From: Isurus oxyrinchus
Taxonomy: Eukaryota
NCBI GenBank assembly: GCA_026770705.1
Contig: JANJGN010000039.1
Span: 4,340,001-4,404,000, forward strand
Direction of reading: 5' to 3'
Length of the DNA stretch: 64,000 nt
Part shown: piece after piece, positions 1 to 63,800 of the stretch
Position numbering within the stretch: position 1 is the first letter of the stretch
Layout: each line of letters starts with the position of its first letter
Position numbers: made by a program

Positions 1-3000
1 TAAATTTAAGGATGAGGTAGGTGGATTTCTAAACTTTAAAGGTGTCAATGGGTAATGGGAAGGAGCGAGCGTATGCCATTCATGAGAGATAATCATATTG
101 AATTGCGGGGCAGGGTCACTGGTTGGGGATTGGTGGGATTCGCAGGGAGTGGTCTGAGTGGCCTACAGATGCTCCGATGATTCCATGATTCAATGTATCT
201 GAAAGTCGATGTAGGGACCATTTGAGCTAAATTAGAGGAAAGACGATGAGTCATGTTCAAGGAACCTATAACTCTTTAGACTTCCTGTTGAGAAACAGTG
301 TGCATCTGGACAGGTAGCACCGGCATTTTCGAAGTTCTGTTGAATTCAAAATGCCTATGTGAAAGAGACCGTTCATTTTGGAGTTAAAACAAAGAGTTTG
401 AAAGATAATGCAGTGGAGTGTTTGGACGCTTCAACCCTCTGGAATTCATCCAGATACCAGAACGTGCACATATTGATATCATAGTTGAATGTCAGAGAGT
501 CCAGTTGCCCTGTGGACTGGAAAGGATCCTAATCGGTGGGGAGTTTATAAAATGAGGACAAAACTGATTTAAAAGCGTTAAGTTTTTCAGTGATGTTTTT
601 GAATGTTATTGCTGCATGCTGCTGTTCACTTCTACTGTCAGCTATCAGGCCGCTATTCATACCCTGGTTGTTTTGAAATGTAGTTCAACAAGATCGAGCA
701 CCTCCCATGTTGAACTAAATTCTGCTTGCTTCTAAATAGGTGTTGTGTTGATGAATAATTCTTTCTGCATGTTTGTTTCAGTTCGAAAAGTTTCCTGTTA
801 TTGGAAAATGGGGAGTATATTAAAAAAGCCGGAGTAAGTAACATCGATCAACCTACGTAGCAATTGCATAGTATATGCACCATATGAAGTAGAGAAGCAT
901 TTCATCTCACTGGAGTTTTGAAGTAATTTCTCCTGAACTTTTAACTATCTATCAATCACACACGCATCCATTGCTGATTTCCTCACTCATCCTCTCTCCC
1001 AGTGTCTGAGACTGCGGGTGTTTAAACTTATTATAGCTCATTGGAAATTTGATTCTCATTGAAAGCAAATGAAGTACCAAATTTGCTCAGTGCAGAATAA
1101 CTGGAAGTTCAGCTTTGTGGAGAATTGTTCAGTTGAGTTTCATACTGGAGCTCGATCATGATTTAATTATTAAATAAGAAATTATTTTCTGGATTCCAAA
1201 TTAAAAGCATAAAAGTTCAGTTATACAATTTCAATAAAATACTATATAGGCTTACACAGTATTGTAATAAGCGATCTAAACATTCCTGCCGAAGTTTACA
1301 AAAATCTTTTCTCTTCCTCTTGCTGCTGCTGCCCTCTTTGTCCAGTTTTCAATGGAGACTCTCCGTGGAAATGACCACTGGTGATATTTTCTATATTTAC
1401 TCTATCCCAGCTCCAAAAGTTGAGCGTGGTGGGCTGCACCAGCATACTACAGGCTCCTGTCCCTGTAACGGTCACTATGAGTAAAATTCGCCCTATCTCC
1501 CCCCGCAATCTATGGTGCAGGGGATCAGGACCAGCATATCACTAAGTTGCCAAAAATAGAGCTCCACAACAGAACATAAAATAAAGTGAGAATATGGTAC
1601 AAATGCAAACAGTTAATGTTTTTCTAATCGTTTATTAAATCACAAAATTAGAAACACGGGATATTTCAGGGCATTCTTGAACTTATCTCGGAATTTCCTC
1701 TGTGTCACGCCATAAATGCAGGTGTTAGTGAAGCAACTTAGGAGCTGCAGCATGAAGCCCAGTTCCATCACAAACGCATCAAGAAATATTGCCCGATACC
1801 CCACATGAAACATCCGACACCATATAGAAAACAACATGAACACTGACCACAACAGGATGAAATTCACCGAGATGGAAAAGAGTAAAATTATAATTTCCTT
1901 CGGCTCTCTATCTCTTTGTCTCTGGGACATTCGCCACTGTTGTGAGCCCGGAGTCTCCTGCGGGCTCTATTTGTCACCAAGATTTGCCTGACGGTGAAAA
2001 TATTTAACAGCACAATCAGGACAAATGGGACACACGGGGTGAGAGTGTTATGGATGAACACAATTGACGACGAGACCAGAGAGAACTGAACATATATTGT
2101 GACAGAACAAAACCACGGGCTGTTAAAGAACCAATATCGAGTTCCAAGTATGAAATACCAGAAGATGTTGTTTGAGCAGCTCAACAGAGTGATAGTTAGC
2201 AGTACCACAGCTGCTGTTCGTTCAGTGCAAAACGTACTTTTCAGCTTCTGGCAGCAAATGACAACAAATCGATCAAAGGTGAAAGTGACGGTGACCAGAA
2301 TGAGCAATCAGTGGCTGCATAAAGCAGGACAGCGTGGATGTTGCACACAGGGACAGAATACTGAATGAAAGCAAATGTTTCCCTACAAACAATTGGAATC
2401 TGTCTCAATATCACGTCAAAGGTAACGACCAGCAAATCCGCCGATGACATGCCCACCAGGTAGGGAGTGACACATTTGGAGAGACCACAGTTTCTCAGTG
2501 AAGGGATCATAATTGTCACGAAGTTAACTGTGGGAGGAGAAATAAGCAGAAAACTTAGACATCAGGCAGGCAGGCAGCAAATATATCAGTTAGATGGAGG
2601 GAGGGCTAATTCATGTTTTCAATGTTGCTTAGTTTTCTATTGAAACAATTGCACAAGAAATAAAGGATGATGCAGAGAACTGTAATACACTGGAAGGCAG
2701 CAGGCGATAAACCACGAAAGATGATGCTGAAAATTTGAATTGTAATGCTGATAATCATCCTATAATCTCCATTTTCCCAGCCCGGTTGAAAAACAAAGCA
2801 ACCTCTAAAGGCTACATCACCTAGGAATGTTCAACATTTTGCACCATCAGCTTTATGTTGTCGGTGCAACACAAATATTGCAGCAGTGACTGAAATCACT
2901 GGGCTTGGTCATCTCAATATGTAATTTTAATGGCCGAGGTCTGAGGCAATTCATTTCTGGATGATGCATGGAAAAGGGAGAGAAAATAAACTGAAGGGTG

Positions 3001-60800: not shown

Positions 60801-63800
60801 AAGCCTATTGCCAGCTGTGCCTCTTTCCTCTTGTTATATCTTAAGTCCAACTTAATGGATTCTGCATTTCACGATCCGAGATACTTCATTGTTGTTGTGC
60901 AAATTCCGTCTCATACTAGCAACGCCATTCCAATCAACATTTCCTTACTGACTGTTCTATCTAATAGTCACAGACCAGTGAAAATGTTGTCCCCAAATTT
61001 GATATCCTTGTAACCAGGTTTCCTTAATGGCTGGCAGATTATTCCTATTAACATCTATATGTACCGTTAATTTATTTATTTTGTTGCAAATACTACGCAC
61101 TTTTAAGTAACAAGTTTAAAAAAAAAACATCCCCCCCTCCTCTTTGACCCAATTTGTTGCTCTTTTGTTTTATGTTTGTACACTCTGCCCCTTCCTGCAA
61201 CACTCAGGGTTCAATACTGCACATCAAAACGTGCCTTTCAAAGCTTCCACAACATTTTGCTTTGTTTGGCTCCGCATCTCCTCTCCAGAACTCTCCAATA
61301 TCACCCCACTACTACTTTGTTTAAAGCCGTCTCGGCGGTTATTCGAGCCATGGTAATTCGAGCCGAAAGGCAACAGGTCACAGCACGTTTCAAGTGAAGC
61401 CCATTCCACACCATCTTGACTTGTAAATATGTTACCGTTCGTTCAAAGTTGCTGTGTCAAAATCCTGGAACTTCTTCCGTAACAGTTCCTTGGGAGACTC
61501 AACACCGCATGGATTGTACTGGATCAAGAAGGCAGCTTAATTCAAGTTCAATCAGTGGTTGGCTATTCTTACTGGCATATCCAGCGATGTCCACATCCTA
61601 TGATTGCATGAAAATGATAATAGTTGGAGTGTCAGTGTCAGTGGGACAGCCAGCATTGCTCAGTCTATGCTGGCTGGAGGGACTGTGTCATGTATAGGGT
61701 CTGTTTAAGTTTCTGTCTATGTAGCTGTTGTAGAGCCTTCTTTTGTTGAAGGGTGTGTGCCTGTTGTTGGTTTTGTTGCTGTTGCAATGTCTGTTTTCGT
61801 TGGTGGGTCTGCATCAATTGAAGGGTTTGTCTCACGTGGAGGGTCTTTGTCAGTGGTAAGGCGCGTTTCTGTTGGGGGCTCAATTTTGTTTGCAGGATAT
61901 CTATGCATTTGAAGTTCATATCAGTTTAAGGGTTTTTATCTGTCAGAGGATGTGCATTGCGTGAAAGCTCAAGTATTCACTGTAGAGTTTAAAATGTTGA
62001 TAACCCGGTGGAGGATTTGTGTTGTTTGAGGTTTCAGTTTGGGTAATAATGCTTCTCGTGTTACTGTTATAAAAACAATGGGTGGCCAAATACAAAAAGT
62101 GAAGAGTTATTCTGTTCCACTCTCAGGCAGCGAGCCTTTGTAACATCCTTACAAATATCTGCATTGCAAGCCGAGTATTTCAATATTTATTCAAGGCGTA
62201 GACAGATTATTTACAATCTAAAAGCAGAAGGATATCTGCAACAGGTAACACGTTATATTCACATTAGCCATGAACTTACAGAATGGTGGAAGAGGCTCGA
62301 AGGGCCCAGACATTTACTCTCTTCGTAATCTGCATATTCTTACTTTATTTGTTTGAATTAGTTTAAGCTGTTGTATCACTTCAAACGTGCAATATTTCCT
62401 GGTGTTGAGTTATCTTCAGATGATTTATTTACTGAATTTTCTCATGAACAGTCAGCAATATCCCACTTTATTTGCTTATCAAATTGTTCATTTTTGAGGA
62501 GTGTAGCTGCACCTCTCAGTGCAGTAGAACAGCCCTCAAAGAGACACAGCAACAATTGGAATTTAATTACTGAATGGCCAGAGTCGAGTGAAGGGCATTA
62601 CTAAAGTAACATGGGATCTAGACTGAGCCTGATGGTGCTTGAATGGGCACAATTATTGGTTTGATAACGCAGCTTCATATTTTATTTGTTAACGCATGTG
62701 ATCAGAATTGTCCAGGCTTTGGAACTTTGCAACTCGAACTCTGGAAAATTATATTGCCTCACTGAACTCGATGTTGTAATCTGTTTGTTCAATTAAAAAC
62801 AAGAAATATGTTGAATAATATTTCATCATCAATATCCCCAAAGCGATCCCATACGGTATAAATTCATATATTTGAGAACTTAACACTTCAGGGTTTAATA
62901 CAGTGTTCGGAGAGATTACCTGCAGCGCAAAGGCGAGATTATTTCACACTGAAAATGCTGATGACATACCATAACTTCGCTAAAATATTCTGCGTGACTC
63001 TTGCCACTATTGGTGTTCCAGGTAAATCACTAAAACCACTGAAGTTGTCTAAATCTTTGTGAGCTGCTTTCTTGTTCGTCTTTTTAACTTAAAGCCAAAT
63101 GCTGACCTCTTCGTCACCAATATAAGGATACCGGAGAGGTGATATATATTATTTGGTGCAGTCAAATGTGTTGAATAATCTCTGCGGGTTTATTCTATGT
63201 CCACAACTGATAATAAGCCTCGGCTAGTGACTCACAGACTCGCTGCATTAGAGGGATTTCTTGTACTGCTGAATCCGACCTCCGTGAATGCAATCTCTCT
63301 GAAGGAAGTTGTCGGTGGGAATCACACTGAGTGTACGTTAGTCACCAGAGTGGAATAGCTGACTACATTGCAAACTTATTACTGAGAGTATCTGTAAGTG
63401 TAGATTTGTACAAAGCCGGTAACATGTATTACTCGTGGCATCTTTCAAAGTAGATTATACATGATTGTGGTTCACTAACTAGAATGGAATAGGTGACCCC
63501 AGTGACTATGCATTACTTGGAGTATCTGTCAGTGTTGAATTGTACTGATCATGGATCAATGACTGGAGATTTGGTTCTGTTTGGAAATCATGTATTGCTT
63601 TATTGCCAATGCTCTGTCCGTTTGATTAAGCTCCCTCTGTGTTTTACGAAAATAACAGTCCGAAAGCAGGATATGTTTTGCTGTTGGTTCAACGTGTTTG
63701 CTAAATTGATACATGAAGTGAAATGACTTCATATCGTGTTTTCTGTTTAACGGCTACAAGAAAATTAGCTCTAAATAAATAACTGAGGCTTAACAATAGT

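What the first reader, a model, noticed from the sequence alone, without database searches (positions are those of the whole stretch)
1640..63021. Birth-and-death cluster of divergent GPR139/142-like orphan receptors
Seen: four paralog loci share one architecture, a 67-70-nt exon 1 encoding half of TM1, a phase-1 intron and a ~0.9-kb exon 2. One is pseudogenised, and the cytoplasmic motifs are conserved while ECL2, TM4-5 and ECL3 differ strongly. Established: mammals have single GPR139 and GPR142 genes, which sense aromatic amino acids. Inference: tandem copies, pseudogenes, very short N-termini and variable extracellular faces are the pattern of chemosensory or immune-sensing repertoires. This may be part of an uncharacterised cartilaginous-fish sensing receptor family. 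The expansion itself probably appears in automated annotations, but I know of no assigned function.
[Added by the scan's program, not by the reader: the finding's places include an assembly gap (unread letters, written N; its length is only estimated) at 6922 to 7107, 18658 to 18812, 21400 to 21576. Whether the letters on both sides are continuous or in frame is not known: test that first.]
Basis: partly seen in the sequence, partly recalled or inferred. Interest (0 to 1): 0.8.

Follow-up and report, generated by a model that had tools for sequence, protein, structure and literature searches.

The report
Cluster of divergent GPR139-like receptor genes
The window holds a real cluster of old, very divergent copies of an orphan receptor gene distantly related to human GPR139, some intact and some decayed, but nothing here shows what they sense or where they act.

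Summary
On the minus strand lie two intact two-exon genes: A (exon 1 19548-19479, exon 2 13975-13098) and B (54577-54511, 39609-38645). Copy C (exon 2 2527-1640) has two single-base frameshifts. A plus-strand exon 1 (D, 62955-63021) has its exon 2 beyond the window.

Only A and B show the full architecture; C has no findable exon 1. No assembly gap touches an exon, but gap 18658-18812 lies inside A's intron.

The proteins are rhodopsin-type receptors (Pfam 7tm_1). Human GPR139 is the best match among solved structures (profile E 7.7e-12, next hit 9.4e-7), at only 23-25% identity, so they are relatives and not orthologues. Cytoplasmic motifs are conserved, while the extracellular loops and agonist-pocket positions differ between copies. 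That pattern is common among receptor paralogues generally.

Synonymous sites are saturated, so the duplications are old.

Untested: the chemosensory or immune role, a cartilaginous-fish origin, and the genome-wide copy number. Databases already auto-name similar chordate proteins 'probable GPR139'. Verdict: new members of a known kind, moderate interest.

The parts
1640..2527 (-). Locus C, exon 2 of a disabled copy (888 nt including stop TGA 1642-1640). Its reading frame shifts twice, near 2295 and near 1897-1900.
   Evidence: tblastn to A and B in three successive frames, E 1e-38 to 1e-41. Sequence at both shifts read. Frames. Acceptor ...ctcctcccacag| and stop codon. The central piece matches Pfam 7tm_1 at E 3.1e-6, 27.3 bits, below the 30.5 cut-off. 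No exon 1 found.
13098..13975 (-). Locus A, exon 2 (878 nt, 291 codons plus stop TAA). It encodes the second half of TM1 through helix 8.
   Evidence: Open frame. Pfam 7tm_1 52 bits against cut-off 30.5. Human GPR139 is the best solved relative, E 8.3e-9. Acceptor ...ctctctttattacag|CC.
13976..19478 (-). Locus A intron (phase 1). It holds assembly gap 18658-18812, so its true length is unknown.
   Evidence: Donor and acceptor. Gap position and TG-rich flanks.
19479..19548 (-). Locus A, exon 1 coding part (70 nt: ATG, 23 codons and 1 base). It encodes a short N-terminus and the first half of TM1.
   Evidence: In-frame stop 11 codons upstream of the ATG. Donor CCG|gtaaga.
28017..28293 (+). Locus E, a decayed relic covering the end of ICL3, TM6, TM7 and helix 8. 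It has an in-frame stop and a frameshift, and no upstream receptor part is recognisable.
   Evidence: tblastn with A gives two colinear pieces, E 8e-5 in the window and 4e-6 in a 3.5-kb subset. B matches the TM7 piece at E 0.038.
38645..39609 (-). Locus B, exon 2 (965 nt, 320 codons plus stop TAG).
   Evidence: Open frame. Pfam 7tm_1 65 bits. Human GPR139 is the best solved relative, E 2.9e-7. Acceptor ...ctgtttttacag|CT.
39610..54510 (-). Locus B intron (phase 1, about 14.9 kb), filled with LINE-like fragments.
   Evidence: Donor and acceptor. Repeat copies 39918-41065 and 51197-52335 are 76% identical. RVT_1 hit at 52064-52465 (-). The pairing of this exon 1 with this exon 2 is inferred: it is the only exon-1-like site upstream on the same strand.
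54511..54577 (-). Locus B, exon 1 coding part (67 nt).
   Evidence: In-frame stop 9 codons upstream. Donor CAG|gttagt.
62955..63021 (+). Locus D, exon 1 coding part (67 nt) of a plus-strand copy, head-to-head with B. Its exon 2 is not in the window.
   Evidence: 50% identical to B's exon-1 peptide. Donor CAG|gtaaat. No exon-2 homology in 63022-64000.

Best explanation
This is part of a tandem cluster of anciently duplicated class A (rhodopsin-type) G-protein-coupled receptor genes. They belong to the lineage that includes vertebrate GPR139/GPR142, but they are not orthologues of either.

The window shows five loci:
- two genes that look functional (A and B), each with a tiny first coding exon (N-terminus plus first half of TM1), a phase-1 intron and one large exon;
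- one copy disabled recently by two frameshifts (C);
- one old relic (E);
- one copy seen only by its exon 1 (D).

Likely mechanism, inferred from family knowledge:
- Each intact protein binds a ligand in the pocket between TM3, TM5, TM6 and TM7, under a disulfide-tethered ECL2.
- It signals through the conserved core: TM2 Asp, D-R-F at the end of TM3, the TM6 Trp, N/S-x-x-x-Y in TM7, and helix 8 K-F-R.
- The positions equivalent to the GPR139 agonist pocket differ from GPR139 and from copy to copy. The copies therefore most likely recognise different ligands, and not simply L-Trp/L-Phe.
- The near-absence of an extracellular N-terminus favours small molecules or short peptides. By kinship these would be compounds with an aromatic moiety.

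Shown here: gene anatomy, homology, which parts are conserved, decay of C and E, and old age of the duplicates. Inferred: splicing, signalling, and ligand class. The physiological role is open.
For: Family and nearest relative:
- Pfam 7tm_1 is the only family matched: 52 and 65 bits against cut-off 30.5.
- Human GPR139 is the top solved structure for A, for B and for their profile. The profile gives 48.4 bits, E 7.7e-12, against 31.7 bits, E 9.4e-7, for the next hit.
- The Atlas neighbours sharing the most features are chordate clusters auto-named 'probable G-protein coupled receptor 139'. They have 82 and 190 members, score 0.97, and share 212-223 of 256 features.

Features shared with GPR139, read from the printed alignments:
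- exon 2 starts at the same N-I-L-T-V / N-F-V stretch of TM1;
- no Trp in TM4;
- an [IV]-P-[YF]-Y-[FW] motif at the end of TM4;
- Asn eight residues after the TM5 Pro, where class A usually has Tyr (that norm is recalled);
- TM7 N-x-x-x-Y without Pro;
- W-I-H in TM5 of copy A.
- The GPR139 gene has two exons (PMC7318219, passages).

Selection:
- A and B keep 291 and 320 open codons.
- pN (0.37-0.40) is well below pS (0.65-0.84).
- For B against C, dN/dS is 0.33 overall and 0.17 in the cytoplasmic-side half.

Pocket equivalents, in the order B/A/C:
- 3x32: T/I/L (GPR139 has E)
- 3x33: F/S/Y (F)
- 5x43: D/H/H (H)
- 6x48: W/W/W (W)
- 6x51: N/T/F (R)
- 7x38: Y/R/F (N)
GPR139 residues are from PMC7318219.

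Exon-1 evidence.
Against: - Identity to human GPR139 is only 69/278 (A) and 63/274 (B), hand-counted from the match lines.
- The solved-structure set has no GPR142 entry among the hits and no fish or invertebrate relatives. 'Closest' is therefore relative to a small, human-biased set. No phylogeny could be made.
- Departures from GPR139: a Cys at 3.25 plus an ECL2 Cys (GPR139 has Asp at 3.25 and no ECL2 Cys in the aligned stretch); D-R-F instead of D-R-Y; no proline anywhere in TM6; and A has Ser in place of the TM7 Asn.
- Splicing is a model. A also has an in-frame ATG at 14063-14061 that would allow an unspliced reading.
- B's exon 1 lies 14.9 kb away from its exon 2.
- A's intron crosses an assembly gap.
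- The structure model of B's exon 2 was poor (mean pLDDT 44, pTM 0.27), so there is no structural support.
- The frameshifts in C could be assembly errors. One lies next to an A-run.
Confidence: 0.7

Rival explanations
1. The cluster is a slice of a large, fast-turning-over chemosensory or immune-sensing receptor repertoire of cartilaginous fish. Its many copies would be expressed in a sensory epithelium or in immune cells, with each copy tuned to a different external cue.
For: - Tandem arrangement in mixed orientation, with one disabled copy and one relic among intact genes.
- Pocket and extracellular positions differ in every copy.
- Very short N-terminus and, in A, a very short C-tail.
- For B against C, dN/dS is 0.82 in the outer half against 0.17 in the inner half.
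- Atlas clusters of 82 and 190 chordate proteins carry the same automatic name, which is compatible with many copies.
Against: - No expression, ligand or genome-wide count could be obtained.
- Only five loci lie in 64 kb, all separated by saturated synonymous divergence, so there is no sign of recent births.
- Variable loops and outer helix halves are usual among any class A paralogues at about 40% identity.
- The outer-half ratio of 0.82 rests on one pair with near-saturated dS (1.15).
- None of the 25 solved-structure hits is an olfactory or trace-amine receptor.
- The host taxon is unverified.
Confidence: 0.15
2. These are ordinary neuromodulator or peptide receptors. Under this reading they are extra GPR139/142-type paralogues retained in non-tetrapod vertebrates, like the 'GPR210' clades. 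They would be expressed in brain or endocrine tissue and would bind endogenous aromatic amino acids or amidated peptides. The cluster would be an old, static array.
For: - GPR139 is the nearest solved relative.
- GPR139/142 are sister to the protostome receptors for peptides with amidated aromatic C-termini (PMC8557429, passages).
- Extra GPR139/142-related clades are known in coelacanth, gar and ray-finned fishes (PMC6504862, passages).
- The duplicates are old and their signalling half is under purifying selection.
Against: - The polar pocket residues of GPR139 (E108, R244, N271) are kept in 0 of 3 copies.
- A pseudogene and a relic in the same array show turnover that is unusual for essential neuroendocrine receptors.
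- The N-terminus is minimal.
Confidence: 0.3
3. C is not a pseudogene. Its two frameshifts would be single-base assembly errors, and the window would then hold three intact genes.
For: - C has no stop codon in any of its three aligned frame segments.
- C keeps all the family motifs: D-R-F, the TM6 Trp, N-T-C-I-Y and K-F-R.
- Both defects are single missing bases, and one is next to an A-run.
- The assembly is gapped.
Against: - The shift near 2295 is not in a homopolymer.
- No exon 1 was found for C in the readable 10.5 kb upstream.
- Relic E shows that copies in this cluster do decay.
Confidence: 0.25
4. The small exon 1s are chance look-alikes and the genes are single-exon, like most class A receptor genes.
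For: A has an in-frame ATG (14063-14061) 29 codons upstream of the proposed acceptor, inside the open frame.
Against: - B and C have no ATG in the open stretch upstream of the acceptor.
- Similarity among A, B and C starts exactly at the CAG acceptor. It is preceded by pyrimidine tracts that do not align as protein.
- Three exon-1 pieces share sequence, length class, phase and GT donors, against 0.00 expected by chance.
- Their ...G-[IV]-P end, followed by Ala-Asn, reproduces the TM1 motif that precedes N-I-L-T-V in GPR139. The GPR139 residues before chain position 256 are recalled, not printed by any search.
Confidence: 0.05

Closest known systems
Human GPR139 (solved structures 7VUG-7VUJ, 9M42)
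   Same: - Best solved-structure match for A, B and their profile.
- Alignable from the TM1 Asn to helix 8.
- Shares the absence of a TM4 Trp, the I-P-Y-Y motif at the end of TM4, Asn at 5.58, a TM7 motif without Pro, and the TM6 Trp.
- Two-exon gene (PMC7318219).
   Different: - Only 23-25% identity, against 70% between human and zebrafish GPR139 (PMC7318219).
- N-terminus about 20 residues shorter.
- A Cys3.25-ECL2 Cys pair is present here.
- D-R-F, not D-R-Y.
- No TM6 proline.
- The polar agonist-pocket residues E108, R244 and N271 are not kept in any copy.
- Here the genes sit in a cluster of divergent copies with pseudogenes. Mammals are said to have a single highly conserved gene.
GPR142
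   Same: The literature names it as the closest relative of GPR139 (PMC7318219). The window's genes would therefore be about equally related to it.
   Different: No GPR142 sequence was available to any tool used, so nothing was compared directly.
'GPR210A/B', extra GPR139/142-related clades of coelacanth, gar and ray-finned fishes (PMC6504862)
   Same: They are non-mammalian orphan receptors grouped with GPR139/142 (passages). They are the most likely already-noted relatives of the window's genes.
   Different: That paper reports a few genes per species and surveyed Ensembl releases 90-92. No sequences were available here, so membership is untested. No other paper in the library uses the name as a gene name (4 papers hold the string, and the other 3 are on unrelated subjects).
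Protostome W/Y/F-amide peptide receptors (MIP/sex-peptide, FMRFamide type 1, myosuppressin, proctolin, RGWamide receptors)
   Same: They are the sister group of deuterostome GPR139/142 (PMC8557429 and PMC8514136, passages). An Atlas neighbour of A is a chordate cluster auto-named 'FMRFamide receptor-like' (score 0.95, 218 of 256 features).
   Different: They are peptide receptors of protostomes.
Vertebrate chemosensory receptor arrays (olfactory receptors, TAARs)
   Same: They resemble these in form only: tandem array, mixed orientation, pseudogenes, short termini, and variable pocket positions.
   Different: Not homologous at family level. None of the 25 solved-structure hits at E up to 1e-3 is an olfactory or trace-amine receptor. 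Those gene families usually have a single coding exon (recalled). Copy number and expression are unknown here.

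Membership tests
Class A (rhodopsin-type) GPCR, Pfam PF00001 7tm_1 | Profile match above the curated cut-off | tested here: met
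   A scores 52 bits and B 65 bits against cut-off 30.5. C's central piece scores 27.3 bits, below the cut-off because it is a fragment.
Class A (rhodopsin-type) GPCR, Pfam PF00001 7tm_1 | Hallmark residues: TM1 Asn, TM2 Asp, D-R-Y at the end of TM3, C-W-x-P in TM6, N-P-x-x-Y in TM7 (list recalled from general knowledge) | tested here: inconclusive
   Kept in A, B and C: the TM1 Asn, the TM2 Asp (A-D-L-L-V), D-R (as D-R-F), the TM6 Trp and the TM7 Tyr. Missing in all three: the TM6 Pro and the TM7 Pro. A also has Ser for the TM7 Asn.
GPR139/GPR142 subfamily | Closer to GPR139/142 than to any other receptor family | tested here: inconclusive
   Among solved structures GPR139 wins by about 17 bits (48.4 against 31.7), and the Atlas names agree. 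No tree with GPR142, fish, amphioxus and protostome receptors could be built, because the protein databases were closed.
GPR139/GPR142 subfamily | Orthologue-level conservation (human to zebrafish GPR139 is 70% identical; PMC7318219) | tested here: not met
   69/278 (A) and 63/274 (B) identical to the human GPR139 chain, hand-counted.
GPR139/GPR142 subfamily | GPR139 agonist pocket: E108 3x32, F109 3x33, H187 5x43, W241 6x48, R244 6x51, N271 7x38 (PMC7318219) | tested here: not met
   Copies keeping each residue, out of 3: W 3, H 2 (A, C), F 1 (B), E 0, R 0, N 0. TM3 and TM5 positions were set by ungapped register from the conserved Trp, Cys and Pro.
GPR139/GPR142 subfamily | Two coding exons with the intron in TM1 | tested here: inconclusive
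   A and B fit a two-exon model with a phase-1 intron one codon before the TM1 Asn. The GPR139 gene has two exons, but its intron position was not given in any text I read.
Chemosensory multigene receptor repertoire (functional class) | Tandem arrays with pseudogenes | tested here: met
   Five loci in 61 kb. Two are intact, one is frameshifted, one is a relic and one is partial.
Chemosensory multigene receptor repertoire (functional class) | Tens to hundreds of copies per genome, including recent duplicates | not testable with these tools
   No vertebrate genome collection was open. Within the window there are no recent duplicates (pS 0.65-0.84).
Chemosensory multigene receptor repertoire (functional class) | Expression restricted to sensory (or immune) cells | not testable with these tools
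   No expression data are available.
'GPR210A/B' clades (PMC6504862) | Grouping with the named Ensembl coelacanth and gar proteins | not testable with these tools
   Those sequences could not be fetched. Only the paper's passages were read.

The most novel reading that the evidence does not exclude
The window samples a large, so far unstudied vertebrate receptor family that branched from the GPR139/142 stem. In this reading the family:
- lost the TM6 proline and nearly all of its N-terminus;
- diversified its binding pocket copy by copy;
- serves, in a cartilaginous fish, as a chemosensory or immune-surveillance repertoire alongside the small olfactory receptor and TAAR sets of these animals.
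Probability: 0.15. Interest if true: 0.75.

Novelty: new member of a known kind. Interest (0 to 1): 0.4.

Why it matters
GPR139 and GPR142 are treated as a conserved pair of orphan or poorly understood receptors. They are sister to a large protostome group of receptors for aromatic-amide peptides.

A vertebrate lineage that kept, multiplied and diversified further members of this stem would do three things:
- It would show that the deuterostome side of the family was not limited to two genes.
- It would offer natural pocket variants for working out how GPR139-type receptors recognise ligands.
- If the copies prove numerous and sensory- or immune-restricted, it would add a receptor class to the small known chemosensory toolkit of cartilaginous fishes.

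On the present evidence only the first point is touched, and only for five loci.

Tried and rejected
- **Structure route.** AlphaFold2 on B's exon 2, with the 5-row window alignment, gave mean pLDDT 44 and pTM 0.27. The model is too poor for a fold search, so none was run and the second structure job was not used. Only its helix boundaries served as rough region limits.
- **Exon 1 for C and E.** Four searches found nothing beyond the three known sites. They were an ATG/phase/donor scan, tblastn with the three exon-1 peptides, an nhmmer profile (best extra hit in C's range at 7907-7881, E 1.1) and a degenerate pattern with 3 mismatches.
- **Hidden receptor piece beside gap 21400-21576.** A weak tblastn hit at 21390-21277 (E 9.3, 0.30 in a 2.2-kb subset) does not align convincingly. 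I rejected it as noise.
- **dN/dS between paralogues.** Synonymous sites are saturated. Two of the three pairs exceed the Jukes-Cantor limit, so this is no usable test of positive selection.
- **Other genes.** Pfam on 10 further ORFs gave 9 without a hit and one RVT_1 fragment. Those 10 were chosen from the 63 ORFs of 100 aa or more found.
- **RNA genes.** Rfam found 0 and ARAGORN found 0.
- **Shared non-coding DNA between loci.** None was found. Self-blastn shows only repeats.
- **Literature.** Searches found no paper describing a GPR139-like expansion in sharks or other cartilaginous fishes. 'GPR139-like', 'GPR142-like', 'GPR139L' and 'GPR142L' occur in 0 papers. Expansions of genes auto-named GPR139 appear in search listings for molluscs (listing only, not read).
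- **Not done by rule.** The joined exon 1 + exon 2 proteins were never built, searched or folded. All searches were exon by exon.
- **Not available.** The genome collection holds only bacteria and archaea, so it was not used.

Full report
**What is in the window**

A stop-to-stop ORF scan gave two long receptor-like frames on the minus strand, 13098-14066 and 38645-39652. Using them as tblastn queries against the window found a third homologous body at 1646-2552, split over three reading frames. It also found a small plus-strand piece at 28017-28293. No other receptor-like ORF is present among the 63 ORFs of 100 aa or more.

**Assembly gaps, tested first**

The gaps are at 6922-7107, 18658-18812 and 21400-21576. 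None lies in or next to an exon, so no reading frame crosses a gap.
- The second gap is inside the intron of locus A, 667 nt below the donor. Both of its flanks are TG-rich simple sequence. This fits a gap caused by a microsatellite, but continuity cannot be proved here. A's exon 1 to exon 2 link and its intron length rest on the scaffold.
- The first gap lies in the stretch where C's exon 1 would be expected.
- A weak hit beside the third gap is noise.
- The gaps were not filled.

**Gene anatomy**

Similarity among the three exon-2 bodies starts at the same point. This is directly after a pyrimidine tract and CAG, two bases before the codon of the TM1 Asn.

Upstream on the proper strand there are three small ATG-initiated pieces of 70, 67 and 67 nt:

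| Locus | Exon 1 | Strand | Donor |
|---|---|---|---|
| A | 19548-19479 | - | gtaaga |
| B | 54577-54511 | - | gttagt |
| D | 62955-63021 | + | gtaaat |

- All three end in phase 1 and share a K-I-[FY]...G-[IV]-P peptide.
- The base left over at the donor (G) joins the first two bases of exon 2 to give Ala in A and B.
- A pattern made from the three sites finds only those three, even with three mismatches, against 0.00 expected in 100 shuffles. A profile search agrees.
- In-frame stops lie 11, 9 and 32 codons upstream of the three ATGs.

The resulting models are:

| Locus | Exon 1 | Exon 2 | Intron |
|---|---|---|---|
| A | 19548-19479 | 13975-13098 | 13976-19478 (true length unknown: holds gap 18658-18812) |
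| B | 54577-54511 | 39609-38645 | about 14.9 kb, full of LINE-like fragments |
| C | not found | 2527-1640 | - |
| D | 62955-63021 | beyond the window's end | - |

Everything below rests on single exons.

**Decay**

C needs two frame changes, after the TM3 Trp near 2295 and after the R-R-K of ICL3 near 1897-1900. Each is a single missing base. C has no stop codon in the aligned frames and keeps every family motif. Either it died recently, or the shifts are assembly errors; one lies next to an A-run.

Only the stretch from TM6 to helix 8 is recognisable, and it carries a stop and a frameshift.

**What the proteins are**
- Pfam matches only 7tm_1.
- Among solved structures, human GPR139 is first for A (E 8.3e-9), for B (2.9e-7) and for their profile. 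The profile scores 48.4 bits, E 7.7e-12, and the next hit is the platelet-activating-factor receptor at 31.7 bits. None of the 25 hits is an olfactory or trace-amine receptor.
- The ESM Atlas neighbours sharing the most features are chordate clusters auto-named 'probable G-protein coupled receptor 139'. They have 82 and 190 members. For A there is also a chordate 'FMRFamide receptor-like' cluster. These are leads, not alignments.
- Identity to human GPR139 is only 69/278 and 63/274, by my count from the printed match lines. Human and zebrafish GPR139 share 70% (PMC7318219, passages). The genes are relatives, not orthologues.

**Likenesses to and differences from GPR139**

These were read. The class A norms used for comparison are recalled general knowledge.

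Shared with GPR139:
- the TM1 stretch at the exon border;
- no TM4 Trp;
- the I-P-Y-Y-type motif at the end of TM4;
- Asn where Tyr 5.58 usually stands;
- a TM7 motif without Pro.

Different from GPR139:
- a Cys at 3.25 and an ECL2 Cys in all three copies, where GPR139 has Asp and no aligned Cys;
- D-R-F;
- no proline at all in TM6;
- the TM1 Asn is residue 24-25, against 44 in GPR139. I derived the GPR139 numbering from the chain offset and checked it against W241, E108, F109, H187 and N271.

Of the six GPR139 agonist-pocket residues, the number of copies (of 3) keeping each is: W 3, H 2, F 1, and E, R and N 0. These positions also differ between the copies.

**Conservation pattern and age**

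Identity in all three copies is high on the cytoplasmic side and low on the extracellular side:

| Region | Identical in A, B and C |
|---|---|
| ICL1 | 4/5 |
| TM3 | 19/35 |
| TM6 | 12/36 |
| ECL1 | 1/9 |
| TM4 | 5/25 |
| ECL2 | 1/23 (the Cys) |
| ECL3 | 1/9 |

Synonymous differences are saturated (pS 0.65-0.84), and no non-coding similarity links the loci. The duplications are therefore old. The window documents gene death but no recent birth. pN is well below pS, so A and B are or recently were under purifying selection.

**Literature**
- PMC6504862 (passages) already lists extra GPR139/142-related clades in coelacanth, gar and ray-finned fishes, under the name GPR210A/B.
- PMC8557429 and PMC8514136 (passages) place GPR139/142 as sister to protostome receptors for peptides with amidated aromatic ends.
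- Eight searches found no paper on such an expansion in cartilaginous fishes. Supplements were closed.

**What stayed unchecked**
- The source organism. The low gene density, long introns, LINE fragments and microsatellites fit a large vertebrate genome. From recall only, the LINE-like ORF at 40212-40745 looks like elements common in elasmobranch assemblies. I do not take the window to be human.
- Genome-wide copy number.
- A phylogeny.
- Expression.
- Ligands.

**Verdict**

This is a real cluster of GPR139/142-related orphan receptor genes with intact, dying and dead members. They are new members of a known kind. The sensory-repertoire idea remains an open possibility at modest probability.

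Noticed in passing
It is a decayed fragment from TM6 to helix 8, with an in-frame stop and a frameshift, on the strand opposite to A, B and C.
   Followed up: partly
window 38645-39609, 13098-13975, 1640-2527 (TM6 of B, A, C): None of the three copies has a proline anywhere in TM6. The position after the conserved Trp-x is V, S, V instead of the near-universal class A Pro, whereas human GPR139 keeps it (W-A-P). I have no explanation for this.
   Followed up: partly
window 14061-14063 (-): There is an in-frame ATG inside the open stretch upstream of A's acceptor. It would allow an unspliced reading of A with a different first half of TM1. B and C have no such ATG.
   Followed up: partly
window 39918-41065 and 51197-52335; 52064-52465 (-); 40212-40745 (-): Two copies of a LINE-like element, 76% identical over about 1.15 kb, both lie inside B's intron. 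One ORF matches reverse transcriptase RVT_1 (E 1.1e-7). The other LINE-like ORFs got no Pfam hit.
   Followed up: partly
window 20524-21092, 23912-24889, 54993-56130, 31457-31777: Several minisatellite arrays are present (units of 23-157, 33, 53-54 and 39 nt). The one at 54993-56130 lies between the head-to-head exon 1s of B and D and produces long spurious ORFs.
   Followed up: no
window 18835-19013 and 42713-43026: A (TG)n run of about 90 copies directly abuts assembly gap 18658-18812. A CA-rich low-complexity block gives a 223-aa spurious ORF on the + strand.
   Followed up: no
window about 19612-19617 (-) and about 62857-62862 (+): TATAAG and TATAAA motifs lie 64-69 and 93-98 nt upstream of the ATGs of A and D (read). 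If real, these small exons are first exons with short 5' UTRs. B has only a weaker A/T-rich stretch.
   Followed up: no
window 21665-21934 and 22272-22543: An inverted repeat pair of about 270 nt (81% identical) is separated by about 340 nt, just above gap 21400-21576. It may be a small transposon with terminal inverted repeats.
   Followed up: no
window 27716-27888 and 37980-38152: A 175-nt repeat (71% identical, inverted) lies downstream of B's stop and just upstream of relic E. It is not colinear with the genes, so it is probably a dispersed element.
   Followed up: no
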